Shown here in pieces: positions 9,650-35,731 of a stretch of 64,000 nucleotides of DNA. Position 1 is the stretch's first letter; each line of letters begins with the position of its first letter. Source of the stretch: a phage; the NCBI GenBank assembly GCA_037431425.1, contig GCA_037431425.1_4129.1; one strand, written 5' to 3'. The notes under the pieces are model-generated. The model ran no database searches and was not told the DNA's origin. It saw only the letters and a program-made list of their open reading frames with translations. The translations under genes and the position numbers were made by a program.

Positions 9650-9833
<184 letters not shown>

Positions 9834-9913: not shown

Positions 9914-9987
9914 GCCTCAATAGCAAAATTGGTAATGCACACGTTTTGTAAGCGTGAGATTTTTCCGTTCGAGTCGGAATTGGGGCA
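9914..9987 (+). tRNA. tRNA-Thr (anticodon UGU), tentative
   Basis: Hand-folded: acceptor GCCTCAA/TTGGGGC (one GU), anticodon stem CACGT/GCGTG loop TTTGTAA, T-arm TTCCG-TTCGAGT-CGGAA; D-arm and variable loop slightly irregular. Confidence 0.55.
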
Positions 9988-10004
9988 CAAAATAAAGGCA
10001 CACT

Positions 10005-15971: not shown

Positions 15972-16029
15972 TTATCCTTCCTTTGTTATAATTATTATAA
16001 CATATTTATTGTATAGATTAAAAAAATGA

Positions 16030-16900: not shown

Positions 16901-17356
16901 ATGTTTAAAAATTTTATTGTTATTGTAGCAGTACTGTTTGGTGCATCATGTTTTATTACACCAGTACATGCAGAAGAACAACGTCAAACTATTAAAACTA
17001 TTGGTACTGGTAAAACACCACCTAAACGTACTGCGGAAGAATACATGCCGGAAATCCGTGAGCGTTATCGCCAGACATACAGGGAAAAACATGCAAATGA
17101 CAAACCAATCAAAAAGCACAAATGGGAAGTAGTTAAATCCCCTTCATTTTGTGCTGGTTATGCGAAGGTAAAGGTTGAACAACACAACAACCAGTACTAT
17201 AAGGATATGTATTACTTCTATGACTCCAGAATTTCTGACACTGATTTGATGGCAGGGAAGGTTGATAAAGAAGAATTTCTTCAAGGTTATGATATGATGG
17301 ACGATGCTAAGATCATGGAGTGTGTAGATGTGTATGAAAAATATAGAGGGTTCTAA
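16901..17356 (+). CDS. putative secreted protein
   Basis: Track ORF; N-terminus MFKNFIVIVAVLFGASCFITPVHA looks like a signal peptide. Confidence 0.55.
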   Translation: MFKNFIVIVAVLFGASCFITPVHAEEQRQTIKTIGTGKTPPKRTAEEYMPEIRERYRQTYREKHANDKPIKKHKWEVVKSPSFCAGYAKVKVEQHNNQYYKDMYYFYDSRISDTDLMAGKVDKEEFLQGYDMMDDAKIMECVDVYEKYRGF

Positions 17357-17817
17357 TGATACTACTAGTATTATTATCAAGCCCGTTTGCTTATTTTATT
17401 CTGTATAATATTTTTAGTAATGCTCATCATTTTAAATACGCACAAACAATTGCAAAACATGAAGGATGGTGGCATTTTTTTCCAGCACTACTGTGTTCAT
17501 ATATGTTCAATGAACGCTATTTTATTTTTCCAGAATATACAAAGTACTATTATGATACTAAAATAAATGGCATAATTGAGTACTGTCTACGTAATTATCT
17601 GAACAATACAGATAATGTTAAAGTGAATTTATTAAATGGAAATTCACCAAGAATAGTCTTTACATCTTACATAGAAGACCCCATTTACTTATATCTATAT
17701 GATTATAGTATTTCGGTTCGTTGTTCTATGCGTAGTAGTTGTGAGTACTTTATCTTACTACCTACACAAATAAGATTAATAGAAAAATACTTGAAATTGA
17801 TTGACAAAAAAGATTAG
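17356..17817 (+). CDS. hypothetical membrane protein
   Basis: Track ORF; hydrophobic N-terminus. Confidence 0.5.
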   Translation: MILLVLLSSPFAYFILYNIFSNAHHFKYAQTIAKHEGWWHFFPALLCSYMFNERYFIFPEYTKYYYDTKINGIIEYCLRNYLNNTDNVKVNLLNGNSPRIVFTSYIEDPIYLYLYDYSISVRCSMRSSCEYFILLPTQIRLIEKYLKLIDKKD

Positions 17818-17829
17818 TAGGGTTATAAT
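17801..17829 (+). promoter_or_regulatory. sigma70-type promoter (TTGACA-N17-TATAAT)
   Basis: Consensus hexamers; precedes ORF 17862. Confidence 0.65.
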
Positions 17830-17861
17830 CATAAGACTAACCGACAAAAGAGGAACTGAAA

Positions 17862-18320
17862 ATGGACGTATTGGCTACCAATTTCAAACGTAACACAGAA
17901 GAGCGTGAAGGATACCTTAGTATTAGCGATGTAGTTGATGATAACTTCAAACAATACATTTTTAATAGTGCGATTAAGTTAAAATGCACAAAGGATGCAC
18001 CAGACCGTAGTTTTACTAAATGGATTGCATATTGGGAAGATTCACCAATTGCAATTGAAATGACAGTTATTACAACAGTTCTGGAAACGGGATATATCAA
18101 AGCTATTGTAGTTGATAAGAAAGTCAGATCTCTTGATGAAATTAACCCATATCCAGCCCGAAATTCTAAAGTTTTTGGGTTTTTGGTTGAAGGTAAGTTT
18201 ATGATTGAAAAAGATGCAAAAGAATATGTAATTAATATGCTACAAACACCAACCGAGAAAAAAAAGGTCGTTGACCAGAATGCTATTGATTCCATCAAGA
18301 AAGCATGGGGACTTAAGTAA
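17862..18320 (+). CDS. hypothetical protein
   Basis: Track ORF downstream of promoter 17801..17829; SD aagaggaa. Confidence 0.6.
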   Translation: MDVLATNFKRNTEEREGYLSISDVVDDNFKQYIFNSAIKLKCTKDAPDRSFTKWIAYWEDSPIAIEMTVITTVLETGYIKAIVVDKKVRSLDEINPYPARNSKVFGFLVEGKFMIEKDAKEYVINMLQTPTEKKKVVDQNAIDSIKKAWGLK

Positions 18321-18321
18321 C

Positions 18322-18744
18322 ATGTTCACACTAAGTAATACAAAATATCTTTTTCTTATTAGTATTATTGGTTGGGTTATGGCTCCAGTGCTTAATGCAC
18401 TGGGGATTCCAGAGGAACACAAACTTGTCAATATTTCAGGTTTAATCCAAGCTATTTCGTGGTATTCATTAATCATATTTTTTGTGTGTATTAACACATT
18501 TGCACGCGAGTATCGACGCTTACTTTATTTTAAAGTTTTCGGAACCACATACTATAGTTTTCTTTATACATTTATTTTAGTTCCATGTGTAGTATATGCC
18601 TTTGTTTTTGATTACTATACATATATGTGGGTGTGTAGTACAATGTTTGTTATGTTAGAATATACAAGAACTATTCAAAACTCATATGCAGAAGAGTTTC
18701 ATGATCAAGAAGTCAAACGCAAATTAACGGAGCTAAACAAATGA
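18322..18744 (+). CDS. hypothetical multi-pass membrane protein
   Basis: Track ORF 18271..18744; ATG 18322 directly after upstream stop is preferred. Confidence 0.5.
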   Translation: MFTLSNTKYLFLISIIGWVMAPVLNALGIPEEHKLVNISGLIQAISWYSLIIFFVCINTFAREYRRLLYFKVFGTTYYSFLYTFILVPCVVYAFVFDYYTYMWVCSTMFVMLEYTRTIQNSYAEEFHDQEVKRKLTELNK

Positions 18745-19166
18745 GAGTATATAATAAAATTTGTATTTTTGTATTTTTAGTTTGTGCGTTCAATTCCTTT
18801 GGCTACTACTGCAACGAAAACAATATTTCATATGGATTAAATCCTTTGTGGTTTTCAATTTCAAATGTAGCTCAAACTGGTATTGCTATTATGTCTGCCC
18901 TTATGTTCTTTCCAATAGTTACGATGGATACTGATTATGAAAGGCTTGGATTTATCCGTGATACTGGTGACGAACCTTACAGTAGATTGATTGTGTTGTA
19001 TCCATTTATTGTTATATTAGGTACTAATATCCAACTTGGGTCTTTATCTAATAGTCTTACTTCAGCAGTCATTACCATCTTTGCATTCATATTTTTTATG
19101 GTACACAAATCAGTACTTAAATGGCACATCACTCAATTGGCAGAGAAGGGTACAGAAATCAGTTGA
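18741..19166 (+). CDS. hypothetical multi-pass membrane protein
   Basis: Track ORF; ATGA overlap. Confidence 0.5.
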   Translation: MRVYNKICIFVFLVCAFNSFGYYCNENNISYGLNPLWFSISNVAQTGIAIMSALMFFPIVTMDTDYERLGFIRDTGDEPYSRLIVLYPFIVILGTNIQLGSLSNSLTSAVITIFAFIFFMVHKSVLKWHITQLAEKGTEIS

Positions 19167-19225
19167 CGTGATGTATCGAGTCATATATAATTATTACATC
19201 AAAACGATCAAATGGTAAGGAACTT

Positions 19226-19477
19226 ATGAACATTGATAAGGTCAAAGAACTTAGTGCAGCACTAATTAAGAACGAAGAAGTATGTGAAGAACTTCGCAGT
19301 ACTATCAAAGTGGAGTATGCACGTCTTCAAGCTATGCTTCAGGAGTCAGAATGGGTTGTAACGAAATCTATCGAATCCATCTATAAGGATATCGAATCTC
19401 TTTTTAACAAGAAAAGTAAAATCGAATCTGATTCATATAACAAACGCAAAGAATTAAATTCAGTACTTGGAATCTAA
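19226..19477 (+). CDS. hypothetical small protein
   Basis: Track ORF; SD aaggaa upstream. Confidence 0.5.
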   Translation: MNIDKVKELSAALIKNEEVCEELRSTIKVEYARLQAMLQESEWVVTKSIESIYKDIESLFNKKSKIESDSYNKRKELNSVLGI

Positions 19478-19554
19478 AAAAAAGTATTTGACATAAAACA
19501 AAATATGGAGTACAGTGTGCTCCATATTTAATTATAAGATAAAAGGAAACCGTT

Positions 19555-19824
19555 ATGAAATCTATTCTCGTTGCAGTTAACCAGATTGCTTCTCCATCTT
19601 TCAACTTCAAACAAGCTGTTGCTGATAAATTGAAGAAAATCTGCCCCAACGCTGAATTAACGTTCTGTGTGTTTGATTCTGAAAAAGTATCAACGGTTGA
19701 TCTAAACTATATCATCAACGACATTAAAAGCATTTCAGGCGAAAGTAATTTAAACTTACTAAATGAGATTGCTGATGATTATGATCATACACTAGTAATT
19801 TCGGAGAAATATTCAATCAAATGA
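19555..19824 (+). CDS. hypothetical small protein
   Basis: Track ORF; SD aaaggaaa upstream. Confidence 0.5.
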   Translation: MKSILVAVNQIASPSFNFKQAVADKLKKICPNAELTFCVFDSEKVSTVDLNYIINDIKSISGESNLNLLNEIADDYDHTLVISEKYSIK

Positions 19825-20240
19825 TTAGATTACTTCAGTACTTAATCATTAAATTTTTTGGCTGTCATACAATTGAAGGAAAAGCTACACTTGCACATAA
19901 AATTTTTGTAGCATTGTGTACAGGTGATTATGACGTATTGAATAAGTACTGTAAATCTCAAGCATGTATTGATATAATGGCACTTCGTATCTATGAGTGT
20001 CAATTCAATAGATATAATTTTTACCAGTACAGATATGATAAACAAGAATTTGATAGTTTTGGAATGTTAAAAAATTTATGCAACAATAAAAAGAATATGC
20101 ATATATCTGAATTTATTGCTTTGTATTTTTATTTAAAAAGTTCATTGTTCATGAACACGAGTCAACTTTTTGATACTAGATTTAATGCATTCAAAGGTGA
20201 AGAATTTTACATATATAATAAATTCTTAGATAAGGTTTAA
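19821..20240 (+). CDS. hypothetical Cys-rich protein
   Basis: Track ORF. Confidence 0.5.
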   Translation: MIRLLQYLIIKFFGCHTIEGKATLAHKIFVALCTGDYDVLNKYCKSQACIDIMALRIYECQFNRYNFYQYRYDKQEFDSFGMLKNLCNNKKNMHISEFIALYFYLKSSLFMNTSQLFDTRFNAFKGEEFYIYNKFLDKV

Positions 20241-20241
20241 T

Positions 20242-20739
20242 ATGACAACAGTTTACATTGATAAACGATTAAATTTATTGATTACTGATTCTAGAGTTAC
20301 ATTAACCATACCACGAAACTTATTTGGTATTTTCCCACTAAAACCAAAATATCAATATGAAGTTGTTAATCAAAAAACTTTATATGTACATGACCGTTTA
20401 TTCAGTGCTAGTGGGACAATAAGTGAAATTGATAAAGTACTGAATTGGTTAATTAACAAAGAACCTGTTATACCGCACAAAAAACTAGGTTGTCATTGTG
20501 TTCTACTATCCAAAGATTATATCATTCACATGAATATATCTAATGGTAAGTTCACTAAGAAACTTCAATATCTTCATGAAGACTATACATTCTTTATGGG
20601 AAGTGGTGGAGAGTATATGGTAGATGCAGCAATACATGAAGACACTACGACTTTATGTAATAAAGTTTTTAGTACATTCATGGACGTTCATAACCATGAT
20701 TCTTTTACAGATAGTAATATTAATGTGTATAAATTTTAA
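20242..20739 (+). CDS. hypothetical protein
   Basis: Track ORF. Confidence 0.5.
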   Translation: MTTVYIDKRLNLLITDSRVTLTIPRNLFGIFPLKPKYQYEVVNQKTLYVHDRLFSASGTISEIDKVLNWLINKEPVIPHKKLGCHCVLLSKDYIIHMNISNGKFTKKLQYLHEDYTFFMGSGGEYMVDAAIHEDTTTLCNKVFSTFMDVHNHDSFTDSNINVYKF

Positions 20740-20760
20740 TTTCGTCAATAGGAGAAGTAG

Positions 20761-21726
20761 GTGAAAAAACTTGATTTGAATACAATTGCAGATGAAGTTC
20801 TGGATGAATGCTTTGGTAATGAAGAAGTGAATACGCTGGATGCGTTAGAACCAGTTCAAGAAAAAGATAACATTGACGAGAAAAATAATGGTAATTTCAA
20901 GTTTAATATTAGTCTTAAGCGACCAGCAAATGTAACAAATGAAGATATTATTCGTGATATTCAAGCAGGTATTAACGTAAAGAAAAATACTGAACTATTA
21001 GTTCGTTATAATTACGGTTTGATTATTGATGTTGCAAGTAAATGCACGTGTTATATTCCATTTGAAGATAAGATTTCATATGGCATTGAGGGATTCATGC
21101 GAGCATTAAAAACATTTGACCTTAGTAAGAATGTAAAGTTCGCTACGTATGCATCGTCAAGTATCTATATGACTGTATACAATGAAAGCTCAGATGCTAA
21201 TCATCTGGTCCACTTCCCTCGTTACATGAGTGTTAATAAGATACAAGTGAAACGCTTCTGTCATAATTATGAGCGTCAGCATGGTTGTCGTCCTACACCT
21301 GAAATTATTTCTGAAGAGACTGGTATTGAAATCCAGCACGTTAAGAATTGTTTATTATTCCAAAGTGAATATACTTCACTGGATGCACCATTGGATGGTG
21401 TTTCTGATGGGACGATGAGTGATATTCTGCATTCATCTGAAGGTGATTATAATCTTAATGTTGACAGTATTCGTGCACCGTTGCGTTATACCATCAACGA
21501 ACTAACTAATGAGTTGAGTGCTAAGGAATGTGAGATTATTCAACGTGTTCATGGATTAGGTGAATTTAATCCTGAAACACTACGTGAAATTGCTGATAGT
21601 GGTTTTATTGATGACAATGGTAAGTGTGTAAAATCCAGATCTTCGGTTCATCGTAAATACAGTGATGCTCTTAAGAAACTCAAGAAATTAGTGCTCGCTA
21701 AAGGGTACGAATACGAAGATTTCTAA
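20761..21726 (+). CDS. sigma70-family RNA polymerase sigma factor
   Basis: Region-2-like stretch LLVRYNYGLIIDVASK...GIEGFMRALKTFD...KFATYASSSI and region-4-like HTH near the C-terminus (ECEIIQRVHGL...TLREIA...KYSDALKKLKK); GTG start with strong SD aggagaag; terminator follows. Confidence 0.75.
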   Translation: MKKLDLNTIADEVLDECFGNEEVNTLDALEPVQEKDNIDEKNNGNFKFNISLKRPANVTNEDIIRDIQAGINVKKNTELLVRYNYGLIIDVASKCTCYIPFEDKISYGIEGFMRALKTFDLSKNVKFATYASSSIYMTVYNESSDANHLVHFPRYMSVNKIQVKRFCHNYERQHGCRPTPEIISEETGIEIQHVKNCLLFQSEYTSLDAPLDGVSDGTMSDILHSSEGDYNLNVDSIRAPLRYTINELTNELSAKECEIIQRVHGLGEFNPETLREIADSGFIDDNGKCVKSRSSVHRKYSDALKKLKKLVLAKGYEYEDF

Positions 21727-21733
21727 ATTGTAA

Positions 21734-21762
21734 AGGTTGGCATATGCCAACCTTTTTTATTG
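21734..21762 (+). terminator. rho-independent terminator after the sigma factor gene
   Basis: AAGGTTGGCATATGCCAACCTT followed by T-run. Confidence 0.65.
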
Positions 21763-22314
21763 GGACACAGAATAAATATATGATATAATAATTATGTACA
21801 ATCCTGTTGAATGCAGAAATGCATATAAATTAGAACCTGATCCTATCGAAAACGTAGATGGCAGATGAGCAGTTCAGCAGTGCGATGAGCAGAAGAAACC
21901 CGTCAGAAGTGGGCATAGTTTGAACCCCTCACGGCAATGCGGCTCAATAAAGAACTCCGATAAGCATACAGAGAGTTCCTAGATAGACATATAAGGAATC
22001 ACACCTTACCAGATTTGCTAAGGGAGTCTTGAAATAAGACAGCTTGAGCTTTGATTGTATAGAGTTTCAAGTGAGTGCTGGGATGAAAAGACCAGTGACC
22101 GTTGCATATGACCGTGATAGGGAGAAACAGAGCAACCCGCTTCCGTTTGTGATTGATCATTTTAACAATATAGATCCGTCCAAAATTCACGATACAATAA
22201 TATCCGATGCCATCAGCGTCAAGAAGAGACTTAATTGTCTCTTTTTTATTACTTTCATTCCCCTGTGGGGGGATGAAATAGTCCTCAACAAATCCCGTCA
22301 AGTATTAAAAGTCC

Positions 22315-22343
22315 TAGACAGTTATGAAACATTCGCGTATAAT
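22315..22343 (+). promoter_or_regulatory. sigma70-type promoter (TAGACA-N17-TATAAT)
   Basis: Precedes ORF 22408. Confidence 0.5.
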
Positions 22344-22407
22344 ACGTAGTATTAGAAGCGAACAGACATCTCGAAGAGATGGATGATTAACTATTAAGGA
22401 ATATCCA

Positions 22408-22617
22408 ATGAATTCAATCATATTTTTAGTAGTAGCTTTCTCTGTTAATTCCGGTGTACAAATAACCCCAATGAATTCCATGAATCAATGTATAGCAGTT
22501 CGTGATAGTACATACGAACAAGTAAACAAAAATATTAGAATGACAGTTAGTAAAGAACAAATGTGGTGTTACAATAGTAATACTAACGCAAAGCTTATTG
22601 TAGGACAAACTCAATGA
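22408..22617 (+). CDS. putative small secreted protein
   Basis: Track ORF downstream of promoter 22315..22343; signal-peptide-like N-terminus. Confidence 0.5.
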   Translation: MNSIIFLVVAFSVNSGVQITPMNSMNQCIAVRDSTYEQVNKNIRMTVSKEQMWCYNSNTNAKLIVGQTQ

Positions 22618-22844
22618 GTTATGGTGTTCGTTTTGAGATTCGCTCTATTGTTATTAATGATGATAAGAAAGCATCGTTAGATAGTGATATACGTGAAATT
22701 TATCTATCATGTATCCGTGCAAAATCTGAAGCAGATGCATTAGCACAAATGTATAGTTTTAACTTTTCAAACGGATTTAATTTGGAACGAGTTATTGAAG
22801 TGAAAAAAGTACTTATAGGTTGTAGCATAGAAGGAATCATGTAA
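22614..22844 (+). CDS. hypothetical small protein
   Basis: Track ORF; ATGA overlap. Confidence 0.5.
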   Translation: MSYGVRFEIRSIVINDDKKASLDSDIREIYLSCIRAKSEADALAQMYSFNFSNGFNLERVIEVKKVLIGCSIEGIM

Positions 22845-22845
22845 A

Positions 22846-23634
22846 ATGTGCACTATAGATGAACTGATTCGACGGAATTCAAAATATTACAAACCATCAG
22901 AAATTGTAGATAACATTACTAAATCAGAGTTCGGACCAAATACACGAAAACTAATTCATGTAATGTTACGTGATGGCTTTAAATGTGATTGTTGTGGTGA
23001 ATCCAATGTGGTATTCACTTTACATAAGCACAGTACTAAAGAACGTTATAAATTCAGACCTTATGTACTTAAAGGGAAACGCCTTGTACGCATGACGTTA
23101 GACCATAATGTACTGGACTGTCTTCAGGGCGGTAATGATAAAGAAAACATGACTGCACTGTGTGAGGATTGCAATGCATTACGCCAGCATAAATTTGCTG
23201 AGTACAGCGAGTTTAAGTTCTGGTATCATAATGCAGATCGTTCTATTGAACCTGACGTTAACTACTGCTTTATCGAGTACATTAAGAATGCAAAAGATAC
23301 ATACATTCTTAAATCTATGGAACCAATTACCGTGTTTCCAATGAACCTATACACTACATTAAAGAATAGTTTTATGGTAGGTGATATTGATGCATTCAAG
23401 TATTTTGACAAAGGTGCAAAACATTTTGAAGTTCAATGTCTTAGTACTGCACTATGTGAACTTATTAAAATTTACATAAAAGATTATTTGGGTATTGACA
23501 ATGTACGCGTACCAGAGTATACTTTTTCTATTGATTTCGATTGTGAATCAATCAAAGAGTTTGGGATTCTTTTCAATAAACAAATAGAACTTGCAATTCA
23601 AAACGAAATCAAGTACTATAATACTAACATTTAA
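22846..23634 (+). CDS. HNH endonuclease-like protein
   Basis: Track ORF; CxxC pair and LDHNVLDCLQGGNDKENMTALCEDCNALRQH fit the HNH motif. Confidence 0.6.
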   Translation: MCTIDELIRRNSKYYKPSEIVDNITKSEFGPNTRKLIHVMLRDGFKCDCCGESNVVFTLHKHSTKERYKFRPYVLKGKRLVRMTLDHNVLDCLQGGNDKENMTALCEDCNALRQHKFAEYSEFKFWYHNADRSIEPDVNYCFIEYIKNAKDTYILKSMEPITVFPMNLYTTLKNSFMVGDIDAFKYFDKGAKHFEVQCLSTALCELIKIYIKDYLGIDNVRVPEYTFSIDFDCESIKEFGILFNKQIELAIQNEIKYYNTNI

Positions 23635-23649
23635 TCAGAGGAAATTATT

Positions 23650-23832
23650 ATGCAAATCATCATTCTTATCGTAGGTATCATTCTTGGTGTATATGGTCAC
23701 TCCTGGATGAACGAGAAGTTCCCTAATACCCGTCCTGAGTATTGCAGTACGAATGTATACCAGAATGGTGAGAAACCAAAGGAAAGTATTGGTAAAAAGC
23801 TGGACAAAGTACTTGACGTTATCAACGAATAA
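23650..23832 (+). CDS. hypothetical small membrane protein
   Basis: Track ORF; SD gagga upstream. Confidence 0.5.
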   Translation: MQIIILIVGIILGVYGHSWMNEKFPNTRPEYCSTNVYQNGEKPKESIGKKLDKVLDVINE

Positions 23833-23841
23833 GGGTAAAGT

Positions 23842-24042
23842 ATGTTTAAATCAAATACAAATGTTGGTAAGAAGGTTAAATTACTTGAGGATGTATCCAC
23901 CTTGAGTGGAATTTTCCCAAGAGGTCACATCATGACTATTATTGCAGAAACATCCCGTGGGTGGGATTTGGAAGATGCTGATGGTAATCGCATCCTTGAG
24001 GCTGGATTCTATGGTCATCGTGAATATAAAATCATTGATTAA
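23842..24042 (+). CDS. hypothetical small protein
   Basis: Track ORF. Confidence 0.5.
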   Translation: MFKSNTNVGKKVKLLEDVSTLSGIFPRGHIMTIIAETSRGWDLEDADGNRILEAGFYGHREYKIID

Positions 24043-24051
24043 GGATGTAAC

Positions 24052-24135
24052 ATGACTTTAGAGATTGTCTTTGGTATTGTTAGCTTAGTCGTCTGTGTGG
24101 GTTGGTTTGGGTATCTGATGATTTTTGGTGATTAA
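24052..24135 (+). CDS. hydrophobic peptide (27 aa), tentative
   Basis: Manually found; SD aaggatg; entirely hydrophobic. Confidence 0.3.
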   Translation: MTLEIVFGIVSLVVCVGWFGYLMIFGD

Positions 24136-24138
24136 TAC

Positions 24139-24166
24139 TTGACATAAGATATCAGTACTGTATAAT
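24139..24166 (+). promoter_or_regulatory. sigma70-type promoter (TTGACA-N16-TATAAT)
   Basis: Consensus; CAGTACTG immediately upstream of -10. Confidence 0.7.
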
Positions 24167-24259
24167 GTTTATATCAAAGGGAATGCAGTGAAAGGAAAGA
24201 CAGCATAATCGTACTCGTCACTGTGTTCCTTTACTTTTAAATTAAATGAGGAATTAACT

Positions 24260-24568
24260 ATGTTTCAAACTAACACTCAAGGTTTTGTAATCATTGATTT
24301 GAATCAAAACAGCGGTAATTGGATGAAACCTACTGACGCATGTATGCAGTTTGATTTCTTAGGTTACAGAATTAGTGTAAGCACTGGTGCTTCTGTACTG
24401 AGGGGTGGTTGTATTGTTGAACATCTGGTAACTGATCCAGAAGGTCGTGAGTATGAAATCGCAGGTTCAGTACAAGATGCCATTATGTTTGTATGTCAGC
24501 GTGAAATGAATGGTTCGAATTCAAATGCACTGACTCATGCTCTTTCTCAAGAAGTGGAGATTCGTTAA
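24260..24568 (+). CDS. hypothetical protein
   Basis: Track ORF downstream of promoter 24139..24166; SD gagga. Confidence 0.6.
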   Translation: MFQTNTQGFVIIDLNQNSGNWMKPTDACMQFDFLGYRISVSTGASVLRGGCIVEHLVTDPEGREYEIAGSVQDAIMFVCQREMNGSNSNALTHALSQEVEIR

Positions 24569-24819
24569 TGAAATACATTGTAGCAGTACTCGTCGCATTT
24601 TTACTCACTGCATGTGATGCTTCAACCAAAGAACGCACAAGTGATTTTATTCTCCCGACTGAATTAAAAGAAGCCGGATGTAAGATTTATCGTATGCAAA
24701 AGGACGGTGCTGATGTAACCTTGTATACAGTTTATTGCCCTAATGCAAATACCAGTACTGGATACACTAGCGGTAAAACACGAGTCAATACTTCAGTGAT
24801 TAATGGAGTACAACAATGA
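24568..24819 (+). CDS. putative lipoprotein
   Basis: Track ORF; N-terminus MKYIVAVLVAFLLTAC carries a lipobox-like LTAC. Confidence 0.55.
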   Translation: MKYIVAVLVAFLLTACDASTKERTSDFILPTELKEAGCKIYRMQKDGADVTLYTVYCPNANTSTGYTSGKTRVNTSVINGVQQ

Positions 24820-25184
24820 GCCTTGATACAACCCGTGCAACAGATTTATTAACTCGTCTGAATGATGAAGAATATCTTGCTGAAATAAAGTACAAGCTTG
24901 ACAAACTGGTTCGAAGTGCTGAAGTAATTGAAGTTGAAGGTCACTTACCAATGGATCAATTCCATACGTTCAACGAAGAGATGGTTTATTATCCTAATGA
25001 AATTTGGATTGAGTGGCAACATTGGACTGGTAAAACACTACGTATTGAAGGGTATTGTGTGAAGTATGAACGTGATCCTGGTTATGTGACAAAAACTTTG
25101 TCAATTTGGTGTACAAAAACACATGAACTCGTTGAGGTGAATTTGAATTATATGAATGGCTTCCGTTGGGGTGATGTTAAATGA
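24816..25184 (+). CDS. hypothetical protein
   Basis: Track ORF. Confidence 0.5.
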   Translation: MSLDTTRATDLLTRLNDEEYLAEIKYKLDKLVRSAEVIEVEGHLPMDQFHTFNEEMVYYPNEIWIEWQHWTGKTLRIEGYCVKYERDPGYVTKTLSIWCTKTHELVEVNLNYMNGFRWGDVK

Positions 25185-25456
25185 TTAAAAAACTCTTGAC
25201 GGTGTTCTTTGTATTCAGTACAATGTTTCTTACAGCATGTAACGATGACGGCAGGTTAAGTGCAAAAGACTTAGCTCGATTAGATTGTGCATACACAGGT
25301 AAGTCTTTTATTAACGAGTATGAGGTATGCACACAATCAGGTCGTATCTGTGGTGGTTGGGAGAAACGTCAGGAGCGATTGTATGTATATGAATGTCCTG
25401 GACAACTCAACAAAGTACTAAGCACACAAAAACTTGTTTATGATAAGGTTGAATAA
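25181..25456 (+). CDS. putative lipoprotein
   Basis: Track ORF; N-terminus MIKKLLTVFFVFSTMFLTAC carries a lipobox-like LTAC. Confidence 0.55.
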   Translation: MIKKLLTVFFVFSTMFLTACNDDGRLSAKDLARLDCAYTGKSFINEYEVCTQSGRICGGWEKRQERLYVYECPGQLNKVLSTQKLVYDKVE

Positions 25457-25671
25457 TGACTACTAATGAAATGATGCAGGTTATTTGGGATAAAGGTTGT
25501 GATATTAAAATCACTAGTACTGATGTTCGTGTATTCAAAACTGAATACCTGGAGTACTTGGACCTTGATACTTATAATAATATTGTATCAATTGAACATA
25601 AAGGTGCAGTACTTGAAACTATTGATGTGGTTCTGAAGAAAGCAACAGACCTATTAGGTGCGTCAGTGTGA
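25456..25671 (+). CDS. hypothetical small protein
   Basis: Track ORF. Confidence 0.5.
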   Translation: MTTNEMMQVIWDKGCDIKITSTDVRVFKTEYLEYLDLDTYNNIVSIEHKGAVLETIDVVLKKATDLLGASV

Positions 25672-25822
25672 ATAATAAAGAGTGGGAAGAATACCGAAAA
25701 AAATGCCGAGAGTTTGATAAAGAACTAACTGGTACTATTAATGCAGTAATGGGTGTATCTGTTTTTATTGCAGTTGTGTCATTATTTGCTGTTATTATTA
25801 ATAAATTTTTATAGGAACTCCC

Positions 25823-26020
25823 ATGTTTACTTTATATCTCGCAGTGGTTCTTACTAATGGTGAAATCACTCGTACTATTGGTGAAGGTGTATATAAAACG
25901 CCTGAGCAATGTTACTCTGCTACACATTGGCCTCGTGATAGTGATGATACTCGTACCGAATTTAAATGCATGAAAGTAAAAGGTGATTTTGTTAACCTTA
26001 AAGTTATTGAGGATAAATGA
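25823..26020 (+). CDS. hypothetical small protein
   Basis: Track ORF; SD aggaa. Confidence 0.5.
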   Translation: MFTLYLAVVLTNGEITRTIGEGVYKTPEQCYSATHWPRDSDDTRTEFKCMKVKGDFVNLKVIEDK

Positions 26021-26535
26021 TGAATATTAATGAGTTGTTAATATTATTGTTTAATCGTGGAAATGATGTAAGACGTACTATCTATCAAGACAAAATACAC
26101 ATTGAAACTGATAAATGTTATGGTAAAACAACTCATGAGATTTTAAAACCGAACGGTAAACGATATGCCGACGTATGTTTTCATGAAAGAAGTGATGGTA
26201 GTGACATAATCAGTACTGATATTGTGTTTTATGCTAGATCATCGGCAGAATCGTATGAAATCGAACTTGTATATTGCCCTAGTTCAAAAGCACACAATAA
26301 GCGTCAGATATTGTATGATGTTTATTCACCACCAGGTGTAGCTGAACATTTTGTTATCGATTACAGTACTGAAGAAAGTGTGTTTCAACAGAGTTTGATT
26401 CATAACTTCCAGTTGAACGATCCAAATGTACCAAAGATGTTCAAACTACTCGATGTAATTGATGTTGATTTTGAATTTGTTATGTGCATCAGAACTTCTT
26501 TAATCGATGAATTTATGGAATTACTTAATATATGA
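26017..26535 (+). CDS. hypothetical protein
   Basis: Track ORF. Confidence 0.5.
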   Translation: MMNINELLILLFNRGNDVRRTIYQDKIHIETDKCYGKTTHEILKPNGKRYADVCFHERSDGSDIISTDIVFYARSSAESYEIELVYCPSSKAHNKRQILYDVYSPPGVAEHFVIDYSTEESVFQQSLIHNFQLNDPNVPKMFKLLDVIDVDFEFVMCIRTSLIDEFMELLNI

Positions 26536-26753
26536 ATCGTTACTACATTGTTTATGAGCATGTATCTGAGTTTAATAATATACGTGGATATAAGAAAGAA
26601 GTTCAGAAGATTGATGTATTTGTACATGCTTTTAATCCTACTCATGCACTAATGAAACTGTTTGATGAAGTAACTAAGTACAACACACCAAAAACACAAC
26701 GCTATGTTGGAACTGTACATAGTGTAATGCTTACTGAATATGATGGAGAATGA
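26532..26753 (+). CDS. hypothetical small protein
   Basis: Track ORF. Confidence 0.5.
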   Translation: MNRYYIVYEHVSEFNNIRGYKKEVQKIDVFVHAFNPTHALMKLFDEVTKYNTPKTQRYVGTVHSVMLTEYDGE

Positions 26754-26756
26754 CAA

Positions 26757-26975
26757 ATGAATTTATATCTTGTTGAAGGGTCAGTGCAAGTGTGCACCGT
26801 AGATGGTGAAGGTTATCGCTTTTCACATGTAGAAGATTTTAAGTACGTTGTACATGCGGAAGGTCAGTATGACGCAGAAATTCAGGTTAAAGAATCATTC
26901 CGTAATAAGAATGCCATTGGAAAATTCAAATACCAGAACTTACAATTCATTGTATGGCCCAGCATTAATGACTAA
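26757..26975 (+). CDS. hypothetical small protein
   Basis: Track ORF. Confidence 0.5.
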   Translation: MNLYLVEGSVQVCTVDGEGYRFSHVEDFKYVVHAEGQYDAEIQVKESFRNKNAIGKFKYQNLQFIVWPSIND

Positions 26976-26976
26976 G

Positions 26977-27183
26977 ATGTGGTGGTGTCATGGTGTCTAC
27001 AATGTCTATGAATATGGTAGATTCAAAATGAGCAGTACATATGCCAGACGTGTAAATGCGAAAAACCAAGTTGATGCTGCTTGTGAGATTGTAGAGTGGT
27101 ATGCAGAGTTCAATGCAATTGAATATATGTACGAAATAGTCACAATAAATGTTGTACAAATTGACACTTCTTTGATACAATAA
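26977..27183 (+). CDS. hypothetical small protein
   Basis: Track ORF 26848..27183; ATG 26977 right after upstream stop is preferred. Confidence 0.4.
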   Translation: MWWCHGVYNVYEYGRFKMSSTYARRVNAKNQVDAACEIVEWYAEFNAIEYMYEIVTINVVQIDTSLIQ

Positions 27184-27214
27184 CTTTATCAAAACAACTT
27201 CATCTGAGGATTTT

Positions 27215-27877
27215 ATGTTAGTAAATCTCAACTTTATCACTTCTCCTGATTGGGCATTGCGTGGTGTTTCTTTGAACTTTAAAGAAACTCATTTTGAACA
27301 CATTGGTGATTGTACTTTAGTTAATGCTACATTTGATCCACATCATCCTTTTTGGGCTAAAATTCACGATCCAAATGTAAACAATAGTACATCAGTCATG
27401 ACTATTGTTCAAACGAAACATCCTGGTATTCTTGCAGGCTACCGTCCTGAACATGCAATTGAACACTTCACTGATTACGATGTGGTTGATGAATATCCAA
27501 TGATCCATAAAGATGGAAGTTTATACACATCTGAAGACGTTCGTGCTATCTTTAATAGTACTGATGATATTCTACCAAGTGGACGAGCACGTCCTAAGTC
27601 TTATCTTATGCATTCATCTTATGGTGTAGCAGACACACTTGAGCAGATTATGAAGAAGTTCAAGAACCTAATTGAAGGTCCAGAAGAAATTGTTTTATGC
27701 TATCATCCAGTACTGAAATCTGACCAACCAGAGAGTGGTGGGTGGCGTTGGCATAAGAATGGTGAGTACATCGGAACTAAGCGTAGTAAAGAACGCTTTG
27801 AGTACTTGTATGATGAGCCAGATGTTGATGTTGTTTTGTGTTATAATTTTCTTAAGGTGAAAAAGAAATGTATCTAG
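27215..27877 (+). CDS. hypothetical protein (220 aa)
   Basis: Track ORF; SD gagga. Confidence 0.6.
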   Translation: MLVNLNFITSPDWALRGVSLNFKETHFEHIGDCTLVNATFDPHHPFWAKIHDPNVNNSTSVMTIVQTKHPGILAGYRPEHAIEHFTDYDVVDEYPMIHKDGSLYTSEDVRAIFNSTDDILPSGRARPKSYLMHSSYGVADTLEQIMKKFKNLIEGPEEIVLCYHPVLKSDQPESGGWRWHKNGEYIGTKRSKERFEYLYDEPDVDVVLCYNFLKVKKKCI

Positions 27878-28110
27878 TATTGAATTTTGTAGTTGTGTTT
27901 TTGTTTATGTTATATCCTACACTTGTAGCATTAGCCACTAAACGAACATGGACACACATTATTACTGTTTTCTTTCTTAACGTTGTTCTTGTATTTGTGT
28001 CTATTATTATTCCAATAAGCTTTACATATACTGACATTGTATTTGTATTACTCTTTGTGTTCAGTTATCTTATGCTCATTGATGAAAATAATATTGACAA
28101 ACGTTCTTAG
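27868..28110 (+). CDS. hypothetical membrane protein
   Basis: Track ORF; two hydrophobic helices. Confidence 0.5.
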   Translation: MYLVLNFVVVFLFMLYPTLVALATKRTWTHIITVFFLNVVLVFVSIIIPISFTYTDIVFVLLFVFSYLMLIDENNIDKRS

Positions 28111-28121
28111 AACTGTATAAT
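28094..28121 (+). promoter_or_regulatory. sigma70-type promoter (TTGACA-N16-TATAAT)
   Basis: Consensus hexamers with extended TG. Confidence 0.65.
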
Positions 28122-28164
28122 AGTTACTGTAGTTTAAAAACACTTTATTTTGAGGATATGAAAT

Positions 28165-28485
28165 ATGTTATCAGTATTGTTTTCGATTCCATCCCTAGTT
28201 CTGATTTGGCTTATTGTTTACGAATTCTTTATCACTGATGTTAATGATAAAAAAGAGTTTGTACAGTTGTTTCTGCTAGATTCACCGATTGTCCGAATTT
28301 ATTATACTATCGTTTGTGTTTCAGTACTTGTATGGATTGTGAGTTTTATTTTTCCATTGGGATCATTAGTATATACATTGAATTTTATGGAAAATGTAGT
28401 GGCTATTCTATGGCTAATTGCAGCATGGTATGCAGGTAATGTTAGTATTTGGATTGATATTTTAAAATCTAAATTCACAAAATAA
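28165..28485 (+). CDS. hypothetical membrane protein
   Basis: Track ORF downstream of promoter 28094..28121; SD gagga. Confidence 0.55.
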   Translation: MLSVLFSIPSLVLIWLIVYEFFITDVNDKKEFVQLFLLDSPIVRIYYTIVCVSVLVWIVSFIFPLGSLVYTLNFMENVVAILWLIAAWYAGNVSIWIDILKSKFTK

Positions 28486-28568
28486 TATTTAATAGTAAAA
28501 AAATACCCCTATGATATTAAATACTTGTATACTATATGTACAAATGTATTTTTCTATAGGGGTTTGTT

Positions 28569-28928
28569 ATGGGTAGATATATAAAATTAATAGCATTTGC
28601 TTGCTTATTATTTTCATGTTTTAGTTATGGTTCGTCATCTGTAACACAATGTCGTAGTTCGAATGGAACTATATATTCATTGACAAACGATCCGAATAAT
28701 GGTAAAAACATTGTTATCAATGGTGTAACTTATCGTGTTAAAGCTCAGAGTACCATCGGTAATAAAAAGATAACGACTTATGTAAATGATTCTGGAACAA
28801 TTGCGAATGTTATATTAATCGTTAACCCAATAACAGGTAATGGTGATATCTATATTGTGATTTATTTGGATACAGCATTACAACGAGAACTAAATTTGGA
28901 TGAATTAAATCTGCACTGCAAAATATAG
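28569..28928 (+). CDS. putative secreted protein
   Basis: Track ORF; signal-peptide-like N-terminus. Confidence 0.5.
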   Translation: MGRYIKLIAFACLLFSCFSYGSSSVTQCRSSNGTIYSLTNDPNNGKNIVINGVTYRVKAQSTIGNKKITTYVNDSGTIANVILIVNPITGNGDIYIVIYLDTALQRELNLDELNLHCKI

Positions 28929-28938
28929 GATATAATAT

Positions 28939-29316
28939 ATGCTCAATTCTATTGTGATTTGGTTTTTAAGTATTCCAATTATTTTATCTTTTGTAATTTC
29001 TATTTGTATGATTTTATATTTTATTTTTGCTGGGGTGTATTTTATTTTTACAAACAAAGATATTTTTATTTCTAAACTTGATTCTATATTTGCTTGTGAG
29101 TCGTTAGCTTATAATTTGTGGATAATTTGTTCTTGTATCATGGGTATGGCATTCCTACTACACGAATTTAATGTCATTGATGATAATGTTGTATATATTA
29201 GTACTGGGTTAGCATTATATCCAGCTACATGGTACTTGATTTATGTTGTCGATATATGGTATAGTACTTACAAAGAATACCAGTGTAAAAAGTCATCAAA
29301 AGTTGAGAGGAAATGA
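28939..29316 (+). CDS. hypothetical multi-pass membrane protein
   Basis: Track ORF. Confidence 0.5.
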   Translation: MLNSIVIWFLSIPIILSFVISICMILYFIFAGVYFIFTNKDIFISKLDSIFACESLAYNLWIICSCIMGMAFLLHEFNVIDDNVVYISTGLALYPATWYLIYVVDIWYSTYKEYQCKKSSKVERK

Positions 29317-29669
29317 TTATGAAAATTATCTTGTTTTTTGTATCTATGTTAGTTTGTGGTTTAGTGTCAGCAGAACCGTTGGAAGGTGTTGTTTGTACAG
29401 ATGGAAATACCAAACACACATATCAAGGTGATAGCTATGACCGCGATATCGTTTATATTGATGGTCAACAATACAGCTTTGTTAAAGAACATACCATTGG
29501 TGACATTAGTTTTACTGAGTTCGCGAAAGATGAGAATCCGAAGGAATTGGCATTTATTGAAGTTGATTTGTATGAAGACAGTAATGGCTCTCAATATGCT
29601 AAACTTGTATTGATGCGTCGTGGTGCAAAAGAAACAAGTTTTGGTGGTTTATGTAAATACAAGGACTAA
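29313..29669 (+). CDS. putative secreted protein
   Basis: Track ORF; signal-peptide-like MIMKIILFFVSMLVCGLVSAEP. Confidence 0.55.
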   Translation: MIMKIILFFVSMLVCGLVSAEPLEGVVCTDGNTKHTYQGDSYDRDIVYIDGQQYSFVKEHTIGDISFTEFAKDENPKELAFIEVDLYEDSNGSQYAKLVLMRRGAKETSFGGLCKYKD

Positions 29670-29674: not shown

Positions 29675-29866
29675 ATGTTGATTTATCAATGTGACGGTAT
29701 TCGTGTTCTACAACATCCTTATCTTCAAATCTTTCATGTTCAGATGTTTATGGAAGGTGATAATCCGAGAACTTATGAACGCACATATGATTATTTCACG
29801 GTCAAAGAGTGCGACAACATCGATGAAGTACGACGATTAGTACATGAACTCCAAAACAAAGGTTGA
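29675..29866 (+). CDS. hypothetical small protein
   Basis: Track ORF ending inside the first PeSL-like module. Confidence 0.5.
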   Translation: MLIYQCDGIRVLQHPYLQIFHVQMFMEGDNPRTYERTYDYFTVKECDNIDEVRRLVHELQNKG

Positions 29867-29892
29867 CTTCGGTCAGCCTTTTTTGTTATAAT
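29858..29892 (+). promoter_or_regulatory. PeSL-like module 1: terminator hairpin with embedded -35 TTGACT plus downstream -10
   Basis: GGTTGAC-TTCG-GTCAGCC stem-loop, T-run, then TATAAT 18 nt after TTGACT. Confidence 0.65.
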
Positions 29893-35379: not shown

Positions 35380-35388
35380 GGATTGATA

Positions 35389-35730: not shown

Positions 35731-35731
35731 G

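What the first reader, a model, noticed from the sequence alone, without database searches (positions are those of the whole stretch)
16901..29669. Cluster of small secreted proteins and lipoproteins
Several small ORFs have signal-peptide-like N-termini (16901, 22408, 28569, 29313), and two have lipobox-like LTAC motifs (24568, 25181). Phage-encoded periplasmic or outer-membrane proteins commonly act in superinfection exclusion or receptor masking.
Basis: inference. Interest (0 to 1): 0.35.

Follow-up and report, generated by a model that had tools for sequence, protein, structure and literature searches.

The report
Early envelope-targeted proteins of a jumbo coliphage
A 121Q-like jumbo E. 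coli phage encodes, in its early gene region, three exported periplasmic proteins and two lipoproteins among many small membrane proteins; the export signals are real and conserved, the function is untested, and the public "Cor/Llp exclusion protein" labels on the lipoproteins rest only on signal-peptide similarity.

Summary
The window is an Asteriusvirus jumbo coliphage, 97.6% identical to phage ph0011. All six flagged ORFs exist at the stated coordinates.

- **Export signals.** Five ORFs carry signals conserved across relatives down to 25-50% identity.
  - Signal peptidase I type: g16901, g28569, g29313.
  - Invariant lipoboxes: g24568 and g25181.
  - g22408 is doubtful because its N-terminus has no basic residue.
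- **Enrichment.** Signal-like N-termini occur in 10/32 genes inside the region against 2/107 outside. The genes lie in at least four units behind perfect sigma-70 promoters. Orthologues are absent from the phAPEC6 virion proteome.
- **g24568.** It belongs to a large family of small phage lipoproteins of unknown function (PHROG 902; 1,288 clusters). Asp at +2 predicts inner-membrane retention. Similarity to Cor and T5 Llp covers only the signal peptide.
- **g28569 and g29313.** They are fast-evolving paralogues modelled as eight-stranded beta-barrels. Each follows a small membrane-protein gene in one early operon, found only in 121Q/RaK2-like phages.

Superinfection exclusion or envelope protection is plausible but untested. 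The result is ordinary-to-moderate: a new member of a known kind.

Aside: an apparently undescribed multi-copy structured RNA of about 450 nt lies at 21797-22290.

The parts
16901..17356 (+). g16901, 151 aa. Predicted periplasmic protein: signal peptidase I signal (cleavage after VHA24), a variable charged linker, and a conserved C-terminal domain with 2 invariant Cys.
   Evidence: PHROG 36332, unknown function. Found only in Asteriusvirus.
22408..22617 (+). g22408, 69 aa. Doubtful exported protein: conserved hydrophobic N-terminus without a basic residue, possible cleavage SG|VQ, 2 invariant Cys.
   Evidence: The PHROG 37707 profile starts at residue 25.
24568..24819 (+). g24568, 83 aa. Lipoprotein with lipobox LLTAC16 and Asp at +2 (predicted inner-membrane retention). 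Two further invariant Cys (C38, C57). Member of the large PHROG 902 family.
25181..25456 (+). g25181, 91 aa. Lipoprotein with lipobox FLTAC20, Asn-Asp-Asp after the Cys, and 4 further conserved Cys. Unrelated to g24568.
28165..28485 (+). g28165, 106 aa. Three-helix membrane protein; first gene of the early envelope operon.
28569..28928 (+). g28569, 119 aa. Periplasmic protein (signal peptidase I type), paralogue of g29313, with 2 invariant Cys.
28939..29316 (+). g28939, 125 aa. Multi-helix membrane protein between the two paralogues.
29313..29669 (+). g29313, 118 aa (likely start 29319). Periplasmic protein; the mature part is modelled as an eight-stranded beta-barrel.
28094..28121 (+). Perfect sigma-70 promoter (TTGACA-N16-TATAAT) of the operon g28165-g29675.
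29858..29881 (+). Intrinsic terminator that closes the operon.
24139..24166 (+). Perfect sigma-70 promoter upstream of g24260, g24568, g24816, g25181 and the genes that follow.
15965..15992 (+). Perfect sigma-70 promoter upstream of g16089, g16670, g16901 and g17356.
17356..17817 (+). g17356, 153 aa. N-terminally anchored membrane protein, highly divergent between relatives.
18322..19166 (+). g18322 and g18741. Two multi-helix membrane proteins behind the perfect promoter at 17801.
23650..23832 (+). g23650, 60 aa. N-terminally anchored small membrane protein.
25668..25814 (+). g25668, 48 aa. C-terminally anchored small membrane protein.
27868..28110 (+). g27868, 80 aa. Two-helix membrane protein.

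Best explanation
The region is part of the host-RNA-polymerase-transcribed early (accessory) region of a 121Q-like jumbo coliphage.

Soon after infection it sends a set of small proteins to the cell envelope:
- three Sec/signal peptidase I periplasmic proteins (g16901, g28569, g29313);
- two signal peptidase II lipoproteins (g24568, g25181);
- at least eight small integral membrane proteins;
- g22408, which is doubtful.

These are several independent modules, not one system.
1. g24568 is a disulfide-bonded mini-lipoprotein of a very widespread phage family. It probably stays on the periplasmic face of the inner membrane because it has Asp at +2.
2. g25181 is an unrelated Cys-rich lipoprotein.
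3. The operon P28094-[membrane protein, beta-barrel, membrane protein, beta-barrel, g29675]-terminator holds two paralogous periplasmic eight-stranded beta-barrels. Each presumably works with the membrane protein encoded just upstream.

Most likely role (inferred, not shown): they modify or guard the envelope of the infected cell. That could mean excluding superinfecting phage at the periplasm or inner-membrane step (as T4 Imm/Sp, P1 Sim or TP-J34 Ltp do), or neutralising periplasmic attack. Masking an outer-membrane receptor, as Llp and Cor do, is less likely.

My confidence is about 0.85 that at least five of the six are exported early non-virion proteins, and about 0.35 that the function is exclusion or envelope protection.
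For: - **Identity of the phage:**
- **Export signals conserved while the sequences diverge:**. Shine-Dalgarno sites. An even number of invariant Cys in every mature part.
- **Enrichment in the region:** Fisher P = 5.7e-6.
- **Early transcription:** 12 perfect TTGACA-N16-18-TATAAT promoters, all on the coding strand, against 0.245 expected. Four lie directly upstream of these gene groups. The related phage PA5oct depends on host RNA polymerase (PMC7318152).
- **Not virion proteins:** the phAPEC6 virion proteome lists nothing between gp037c and gp077, which brackets the orthologues gp045c-gp076c.
- **g24568 family:** 582 phage records and 1,288 representative clusters. Asp at +2 in 45% of members, with N or E in a further 26%.
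- **g28569/g29313 paralogy:** cross BLASTP hits at 2e-6 to 7e-4 and a shared Cys/Asp/Tyr/Gly pattern.
- **g29313 model:** pLDDT 84, pTM 0.74, eight strands. Its nearest folds are calycin-type barrels.
- **Fast evolution:** the block g27868-g29319 and g17356 are the most divergent genes of the region (42-70% against 80-95% in the flanks, versus phage vB_Ec-M-J). This is expected for proteins at a host or competitor interface.
Against: - No dedicated signal-peptide predictor could be run.
- No experiment exists for any of these proteins.
- No homology to any characterised exclusion protein was found beyond the signal peptide.
- PADLOC, Pfam, NCBIfam and PDB searches were all empty.
- The g24568 model is of low confidence (pLDDT 63.5) and has no structural match.
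- The +2 rule is a prediction; only 45% of the family has Asp there.
- Early timing is inferred from promoter sequence, not from expression data.
- The pairing of each membrane protein with the following beta-barrel rests on gene order alone. The two membrane proteins are not detectably homologous.
- The strong hhalign score for the paralogues was inflated, because one g28569 orthologue was in the g29313 profile.
Confidence: 0.45

Rival explanations
1. The periplasmic beta-barrels, and possibly the lipoproteins, are inhibitors or binders of periplasmic enzymes or toxins. Examples of such targets are lysozymes, proteases and colicin-type attack. They would protect the infected cell wall, not block phage entry as such.
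For: - The g29313 model is a small eight-stranded barrel with an N-to-C disulfide.
- Its nearest PDB folds include staphostatin (a lipocalin-like protease inhibitor) and lipocalins.
- Weak BFVD matches include 'Putative lysozyme inhibitor [Serratia phage Moabite]' (E 0.09) and a phage lipoprotein (E 0.048).
Against: - All these matches are weak (E at least 0.05, TM 0.45-0.58).
- None of 21 family members hits Pfam MliC/PliC or any inhibitor family, even at E up to 10.
- There is no PDB sequence hit.
Confidence: 0.2
2. The proteins belong to lysis or lysis-timing control, as spanin, antiholin or lysis-inhibition proteins. In T4 RI and Rz/Rz1 systems such proteins are also periplasmic or lipoproteins.
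For: Small lipoproteins and periplasmic proteins are typical of spanins and antiholins (established knowledge). One family member gave a weak Pfam 'Lysis_col' hit at E 0.082.
Against: - No inner-membrane spanin-like partner is embedded in, overlapping or adjacent to g24568 or g25181. The neighbours g24260 and g24816 have no membrane helix.
- Neither lipoprotein has a C-terminal membrane helix, as a unimolecular spanin would.
- No endolysin or holin lies nearby.
- The promoters are consensus sigma-70 (early type), not late.
- In Felix O1-like, Certrevirus and Vibrio phages, g24568 relatives sit among replication and early genes.
Confidence: 0.1
3. Some or all of the hydrophobic N-termini are uncleaved membrane anchors or annotation artefacts, so the proteins are not secreted.
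For: - g22408 lacks a basic n-region.
- UE-S1 and PHROG 37707 use a shorter start for g22408.
- My heuristic also flags true membrane proteins, so it is not specific.
Against: - For five of the six, canonical -3/-1 sites or lipoboxes persist while the surrounding signal sequence diverges.
- The mature parts are polar, with paired invariant Cys.
- Shine-Dalgarno sequences precede the long forms.
Confidence: 0.1
4. They are virion (structural) proteins, as the CRJP21 record labels the g29313 orthologue.
For: CRJP21 gp_527 is annotated 'structural protein'.
Against: - The phAPEC6 virion mass-spectrometry list has no protein from gp038c to gp076c.
- The CRJP21 labels look displaced. 'RNA polymerase sigma factor' sits on the g17356 orthologue, while the real sigma factor is labelled hypothetical.
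- The proteins carry cleavable Sec signals and have early-type promoters.
Confidence: 0.03

Closest known systems
T5 Llp (lytic conversion lipoprotein; blocks FhuA)
   Same: A small, early-expressed phage lipoprotein of about 60-70 mature residues with a canonical lipobox and a Cys pair in the mature part. The fEgEco12 record names the orthologues of both g24568 and g25181 'lytic conversion lipoprotein'.
   Different: - The alignment covers only the signal peptide: 18 columns with the 100-sequence profile. A shallower profile gave 34 columns at 54% probability.
- Llp has Ser at +2 and sits in the inner leaflet of the outer membrane (bioRxiv 10.64898/2026.03.26.714494). g24568 has Asp at +2.
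- The Cys spacing differs: 10 and 47 residues in Llp against 22 and 19 in g24568.
- llp lies beside the receptor-binding gene oad. These genes do not.
- Foldseek against the PDB gave no significant match of any kind (best E 3.5), but from a low-confidence model.
Cor (phi80/N15/T1/HK022 superinfection exclusion lipoprotein)
   Same: A small phage lipoprotein. There is a weak PHROG 1119 hit (E 1.5e-3). The vB_Ec-M-J orthologue is annotated as Cor.
   Different: - hhalign aligns only 22 columns, all signal peptide and lipobox.
- There is no RAGYPF motif, and the Cys spacing differs.
- Cor has Ser at +2.
- Cor genes lie in the tail-fibre region.
Ltp of Streptococcus phage TP-J34; T4 Imm/Sp; P1 Sim
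   Same: These are exclusion proteins that act at the cytoplasmic membrane or periplasm to block DNA entry or the tail lysozyme. Ltp is a lipoprotein anchored on the outer face of the cytoplasmic membrane, which is the location predicted for g24568. This rests on established knowledge, not on a test here.
   Different: No sequence or structural relationship was detected or tested. The resemblance is functional and topological only.
Calycin-type eight-stranded beta-barrels (lipocalins, Tp0751 pallilysin, staphostatin, avidins; MliC/PliC lysozyme inhibitors)
   Same: The g29313 mature domain is modelled as eight antiparallel strands of about 98 residues with terminal Cys residues. The best PDB match is Tp0751 (E 0.068, TM 0.55).
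   Different: The scores are weak. No sequence-family match exists. MliC and PliC are not among the top 50 PDB hits.
PHROG 902 (uncharacterised phage lipoprotein family)
   Same: g24568 matches at E 3.2e-14, and 7/7 diverse relatives match at up to 2.9e-18. This is true membership.
   Different: The family has no known function, so membership says nothing about mechanism.

Membership tests
Bacterial-type lipoprotein (signal peptidase II substrate) | Lipobox [LVI][ASTVI][GAS]C at residues 15-35, preceded by a basic n-region and an uncharged h-region (PROSITE PS51257 logic) | tested here: met
   g24568 has MK...LLTAC16 and g25181 has MIKK...FLTAC20. The Cys is invariant in 100/100 family members, -3 is L/I/V in 97% and -1 is G/A/S in 100%. 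The g25181 lipobox is conserved in 6/6 relatives.
Bacterial-type lipoprotein (signal peptidase II substrate) | Actual diacylglyceryl modification and globomycin-sensitive cleavage | not testable with these tools
   Needs labelling or globomycin experiments.
Sec/signal peptidase I secretory protein | n-region with a positive charge, h-region of 7-15 hydrophobic residues, c-region with small residues at -3 and -1 | tested here: met
   g16901 (K3; VHA|E), g28569 (R3, K6; SYG|S) and g29313 (K4; VSA|E). The design is kept in relatives whose signal sequences have diverged. SignalP was not available.
Sec/signal peptidase I secretory protein | The same features, applied to g22408 | tested here: inconclusive
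   There is no K/R in the n-region and the h-region is about 10 residues, with an SG|VQ site. The N-terminus is conserved and the SD sequence precedes the long form.
Cor superinfection exclusion protein (PHROG 1119) | Homology of the mature domain (conserved CT...GG.E...RAGYPF...NF.S..C) | tested here: not met
   hhalign of A1/A3 against N15 plus T1 Cor aligns 22 columns, all signal peptide and lipobox.
Cor superinfection exclusion protein (PHROG 1119) | Gene located in the tail or host-recognition module | tested here: not met
   Cor lies next to tail-fibre genes in N15 and T1. g24568 lies among early hypothetical genes.
Cor superinfection exclusion protein (PHROG 1119) | Exclusion of FhuA-dependent phages | not testable with these tools
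   Needs plating assays.
T5 Llp | Homology or fold similarity of the mature domain | tested here: not met
   A3 against Llp aligns 18 columns, signal only. g25181 against Llp gives no BLASTP alignment and 5% hhalign probability. Foldseek of the g24568 model against the PDB gave no significant match (best E 3.5); the model is of low confidence, so the structural part is weak evidence.
T5 Llp | Outer-membrane sorting (non-Asp residue at +2) and a gene adjacent to the receptor-binding protein gene | tested here: not met
   Llp reads C-S-T and lies next to oad. g24568 reads C-D-A, g25181 reads C-N-D, and neither has a receptor-binding gene nearby.
Spanins (outer-membrane or unimolecular type) | An outer-membrane lipoprotein gene embedded in or adjacent to an inner-membrane spanin gene, or a lipoprotein with a C-terminal membrane helix; located in the lysis cassette | tested here: not met
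   The neighbours have no membrane helix. The lipoproteins have no C-terminal helix. There is no endolysin or holin nearby.
MliC/PliC lysozyme inhibitors | Match to Pfam PF09864 or its conserved motifs | tested here: not met
   0/21 family members hit it at E up to 10. There is only a weak structural echo to a phage 'putative lysozyme inhibitor' (E 0.09).
Calycin/lipocalin-like fold | Eight-stranded antiparallel up-and-down barrel with significant structural similarity | tested here: inconclusive
   The model has eight strands and pLDDT 84. The best PDB match has E 0.068 and TM 0.55.
PHROG 902 | Significant full-length profile match | tested here: met
   E 3.2e-14 for g24568, with 7/7 diverse relatives matching.

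The most novel reading that the evidence does not exclude
The g24568 family (PHROG 902) may be a distinct and very widespread class of phage exclusion or entry-blocking factor. It counts at least 1,288 clusters across Felix O1-like, Certrevirus, Vibrio, Acinetobacter and jumbo phages. Its members would be inner-membrane-anchored, disulfide-bonded mini-lipoproteins acting from the periplasmic face of the inner membrane. They are unrelated to Llp and Cor. Separately, the duplicated 'membrane protein + periplasmic beta-barrel' operon of 121Q/RaK2-like phages may be a new two-component envelope-guard module under diversifying selection.
Probability: 0.2. Interest if true: 0.6.

Novelty: new member of a known kind. 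Interest (0 to 1): 0.3.

Why it matters
- **Phage biology.** Exclusion and envelope-remodelling genes decide which phages can co-infect, how phage cocktails interfere with each other, and how lysates re-adsorb. Jumbo coliphages of this group are being proposed for therapy, yet more than 80% of their genes are unannotated.
- **Experimental targets.** This work names concrete small targets for simple plasmid-based exclusion assays: two lipoproteins and one five-gene operon.
- **Annotation error.** 'Cor' and 'lytic conversion lipoprotein' labels are spreading through GenBank on the strength of signal-peptide similarity alone.
- **An open family.** The g24568 family is large enough that finding its function would annotate more than a thousand phage gene clusters.

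Tried and rejected
- **Curated libraries.** Pfam, NCBIfam and PADLOC scans of the flagged proteins gave nothing significant. The weak hits (TrbK, LPAM_1, acineto_lipo) are signal-peptide matches.
- **PDB sequence searches.** Nothing for A1, A4, g29313 or g16901.
- **Cor and Llp homology.** Rejected by profile-profile comparison.
- **g24568 and g25181 as paralogues.** Rejected.
- **g16901 and g28569 as lipoproteins.** Both match the permissive PROSITE pattern at Cys17. Rejected because that Cys is not conserved.
- **g28165 and g28939 as paralogues.** A tandem duplication of a two-gene unit is not supported for the membrane partners (hhalign probability 0.4%).
- **Other membrane-protein arrays.** The three-helix arrays elsewhere in the window (35041-36076, 43776-46556) are not related to the membrane proteins of this region by BLASTP.
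- **MliC/PliC identity of the beta-barrels.** Not supported.
- **Spanin and virion-protein readings.** Rejected; see the rival explanations.
- **g24568 structure.** The AlphaFold model was too poor (pLDDT 63.5) for a meaningful fold search.
- **PF16225 tag.** The precomputed 'PF16225' label on all g24568 relatives was not reproduced by hmmscan at E up to 10. I did not use it.
- **PA5oct ncRNA002.** It is not a detectable homologue of the RNA candidate noticed in passing.

Full report
**Source and setting.**
The window is 33% G+C and matches Escherichia phage ph0011 at 97.6% identity over the region. It matches the 121Q/PBECO4/phAPEC6 group at about 85%. It is therefore an Asteriusvirus jumbo myovirus.

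Region 16901-29669 is a block of about 34 small genes on the + strand. Nearly all are 'hypothetical' in public records. The exceptions are a sigma-70-family factor (20761-21726) and an HNH endonuclease (22846-23634).

**Checking the observation.**
No SignalP or LipoP was available. I used a PROSITE-type lipobox pattern, an n/h/c heuristic and, above all, conservation in relatives. The relatives were ph0011, UE-S1, E9.1, vB_Ec-M-J, A4, Turkey5 and RaK2.

- **Signal peptidase I type.** Three proteins have classical signals. The cleavage motif persists while the rest of the signal drifts.
  - g16901: PV[HY]A followed by E/D/S.
  - g28569: SYG, STA, ANA, VEA or VSA.
  - g29313: VSA, SYA, AHA or ARA followed by E.
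- **Not lipoproteins.** The permissive lipobox matches at Cys17 of g16901 and g28569 are not conserved.
- **True lipoboxes.** g24568 (LLTAC followed by D) and g25181 ([FI]LTAC followed by ND; Turkey5 has LTGC followed by DE) are invariant.
- **Doubtful case.** g22408 has a conserved hydrophobic N-terminus and an SG|VQ site, but no basic residue.

All six keep an even number of invariant cysteines in the mature part. That is what one expects of periplasmic disulfide-bonded proteins.

Applied uniformly, my heuristic flags 10/32 genes inside the region and 2/107 outside (Fisher P = 5.7e-6). The region also encodes at least eight uncleaved small membrane proteins. The 'cluster', however, is loose and spans several transcription units.

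**Expression context.**
The window holds 12 perfect TTGACA-N16-18-TATAAT promoters, all on the coding strand. A first-order Markov simulation expects 0.245.

Four of them stand directly before gene groups that contain the flagged ORFs, at 15965, 17801, 24139 and 28094. An 11/12 match at 22315 precedes g22408.

The last unit is self-contained: promoter 28094, g28165 (membrane), g28569 (secreted), g28939 (membrane), g29313 (secreted), g29675, then the terminator at 29858-29881.

Consensus sigma-70 promoters are the mark of host-polymerase early genes. The related phage PA5oct depends on host RNA polymerase (PMC7318152).

The phAPEC6 virion proteome lists no protein between gp037c and gp077 (PMC7247149). 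That interval contains every orthologue of this region. These are therefore early, non-structural proteins. The timing is inferred, not measured.

**g24568.**
tblastn finds relatives in 582 phage records. They include Felix O1-like, Certrevirus, 114-kb Vibrio phages, Eneladusvirus and Acinetobacter ME3.

A profile search of 1.84 billion representatives finds 1,288 clusters at E up to 1e-3 and 708 at E up to 1e-10. Nearly all are stand-alone proteins of 75-130 residues. The family is PHROG 902, of unknown function.

In 100 members the lipobox Cys is invariant. Two further Cys are present in 86%. The +2 residue is Asp in 45%, and Asn or Glu in 26%. By the E. coli +2 sorting rule (established knowledge), Asp at +2 predicts retention in the inner membrane.

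In other phages the gene sits among early and replication genes, not next to receptor-binding genes.

Two public records give functional names:
- 'Cor superinfection exclusion protein' in vB_Ec-M-J;
- 'lytic conversion lipoprotein' in fEgEco12, for this gene and for the g25181 orthologue. That annotation used BLASTP and HHpred according to PMC13070987.

I tested both names. hhalign against N15/T1 Cor aligns 22 columns, and against T5 Llp 18 columns with the deep profile. All of these columns are signal peptide and lipobox. A shallower profile had suggested a short P.[DE][IL].C.[AI]Y.MQ resemblance to Llp at 54% probability. It did not survive the deeper profile.

The Cys spacing, the +2 residue and the genomic context also differ. 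The AlphaFold model was poor (pLDDT 63.5) and had no PDB match. Membership in Cor or Llp is not supported.

**g25181.**
This is an unrelated Cys-rich lipoprotein (PHROG 31263). It occurs in Asteriusvirus and a few Salmonella and Klebsiella jumbo phages. It shows no similarity to g24568, Llp or Cor beyond the signal.

**g28569 and g29313.**
These are paralogues, on three grounds:
- direct BLASTP at 7e-4;
- cross hits between orthologues down to 2e-6;
- shared invariant Cys-Asp...Cys and near-invariant Asp, Tyr and Gly.

The very strong hhalign score is inflated, because one g28569 orthologue was included in the other profile.

The family exists only in Asteriusvirus and RaK2-like Alcyoneusvirus: 45 phage records and 19 clusters among 5.8 billion proteins.

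The mature g29313 model is confident (pLDDT 84.4, pTM 0.74) and has eight strands. Foldseek places it weakly among calycin-type barrels. Tp0751 is the best hit (E 0.068, TM 0.55), followed by lipocalins, avidins and staphostatin.

In the viral library, beyond the orthologues, there are only weak matches. One is a 'putative lysozyme inhibitor' of Serratia phage Moabite at E 0.09. No Pfam family, MliC/PliC included, matches any of 21 members.

Each paralogue follows a small multi-helix membrane protein gene. This order is kept in RaK2. The two membrane proteins are not detectably related to each other.

The block g27868-g29319, together with g17356, is the most divergent part of the region between Asteriusvirus genomes. 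Identity to vB_Ec-M-J is 42-70% there, against 80-95% in the flanks.

**g16901.**
The signal peptide is followed by a charged linker that is deleted in A4 and expanded in Turkey5. Then comes a conserved domain of about 80 residues with two invariant Cys. It occurs only in Asteriusvirus, and no family or structural lead was found.

**Interpretation.**
Shown:
- conserved export signals;
- early-type promoters;
- absence from virions;
- family sizes;
- lack of homology to Llp, Cor, spanins or MliC.

Inferred:
- the proteins act on the envelope of the infected cell;
- the most plausible role is superinfection exclusion or envelope protection at the periplasm or inner membrane;
- the fast-evolving membrane-plus-barrel operon is the best candidate for a specificity-determining module.

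Outer-membrane receptor masking in the manner of Llp or Cor is less likely for g24568 because of Asp at +2. Spanin, lysis and virion roles are unlikely, for the reasons given under the rival explanations.

**Novelty.**
Every gene already exists in GenBank as a hypothetical protein, and early envelope-targeted accessory proteins are a known kind. The new points are these:
- evidence that five of the six are genuinely exported;
- the Cor and Llp labels are signal-peptide artefacts;
- g24568 belongs to a very large uncharacterised lipoprotein family, probably of the inner membrane;
- the clade-restricted, duplicated beta-barrel operon is defined here.

I rate the interest as low to moderate.

**Noticed in passing.**
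Inside the finding's coordinates, at 21797-22290, lies a non-coding stretch of about 450 nt that is richer in G+C.

- It is conserved at 72-91% nucleotide identity in distant jumbo phages (CBB, BF, GAP32, Xanthomonas XbC2), where nothing is annotated.
- It has a conserved extended -10 promoter and a covarying intrinsic terminator.
- RNAalifold predicts 78 pairs, of which 32 show compensatory double changes.
- It matches no Rfam family.
- A covariance model of its 5' domain finds full-length matches in all 28 IMG/VR loci recovered by a motif scan, with 2-4 copies per genome.
- It does not match PA5oct ncRNA002.

It looks like an undescribed multi-copy structured RNA of RaK2-like jumbo phages, and it deserves its own follow-up.

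Noticed in passing
window 21797-22290 (+): A candidate new structured non-coding RNA of about 450 nt, between the sigma-factor terminator and g22408. It has an extended -10 promoter at 21779-21789 and a terminator at 22221-22246. It is conserved in distant jumbo phages (CBB, BF, GAP32, XbC2) at unannotated intergenic sites. RNAalifold predicts 78 pairs, 32 with compensatory changes. There is no Rfam match. There are 2-4 copies per genome in 28 IMG/VR loci, all matched by a covariance model of the 5' domain. It is not detectably related to PA5oct ncRNA002. The 101-aa ORF at 22044-22349 inside it is probably spurious.
   Followed up: partly
whole window, + strand (1072, 1619, 5570, 5714, 9591, 10717, 15965, 17801, 24139, 28094, 36725, 61028): Twelve perfect TTGACA-N16-18-TATAAT promoters, all on the + strand, against 0.245 expected by chance. 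Several share an extended 'AGTACTGTATAATG' -10 context. This marks a host-polymerase early region.
   Followed up: partly
window 35041-36076 and 43776-46556 (+): Two tandem arrays (3 and 8 genes) of small membrane proteins of about 105-123 aa, mostly with three predicted helices. Only some neighbours are detectably paralogous by BLASTP. They are unrelated to the membrane proteins of the finding.
   Followed up: partly
window 47291-55969 (-): Seven tandem paralogous genes of about 370-450 aa, all starting MLPF[GAV]RM. Possibly the 'DNA/chromosome condensation' proteins named in Asteriusvirus papers. Not examined.
   Followed up: no
window 6345-6831 and 56431-60326 (+): Tandem arrays of very small paralogous ORFs: three 54-aa 'MTHEEWM...' genes, and a dozen or so Tyr-rich genes of about 60 aa. 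Not examined.
   Followed up: no
window 6153-9988 (+): A cluster of six tRNA genes: Ser-TGA, Arg-TCT, Ser-GCT, Met, Asn and Thr.
   Followed up: no
public records, orthologues of window 17356, 20761, 24568, 25181, 28569, 29313: Annotation problems. In CRJP21 the 'RNA polymerase sigma factor' label sits on the g17356 orthologue, while the real sigma factor is 'hypothetical', and its 'structural protein' labels look displaced. phAPEC6 does not annotate either lipoprotein gene or the g28569 orthologue. vB_Ec-M-J ('Cor') and fEgEco12 ('lytic conversion lipoprotein', twice) carry names not supported by mature-domain homology.
   Followed up: yes
window 20242-20739 (+): A 165-aa protein just upstream of the sigma factor has a weak PHROG 'peptidase HslV family' hit (E 8.7e-5). 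It is annotated as an HslV-like protease subunit in fEgEco12 and as an ATP-dependent protease in Turkey3.
   Followed up: no
proteins P0001-P0120 (g24568 relatives): All carry a precomputed Pfam tag, PF16225. hmmscan against the Pfam-A copy at hand did not reproduce it, even at E up to 10.
   Followed up: partly
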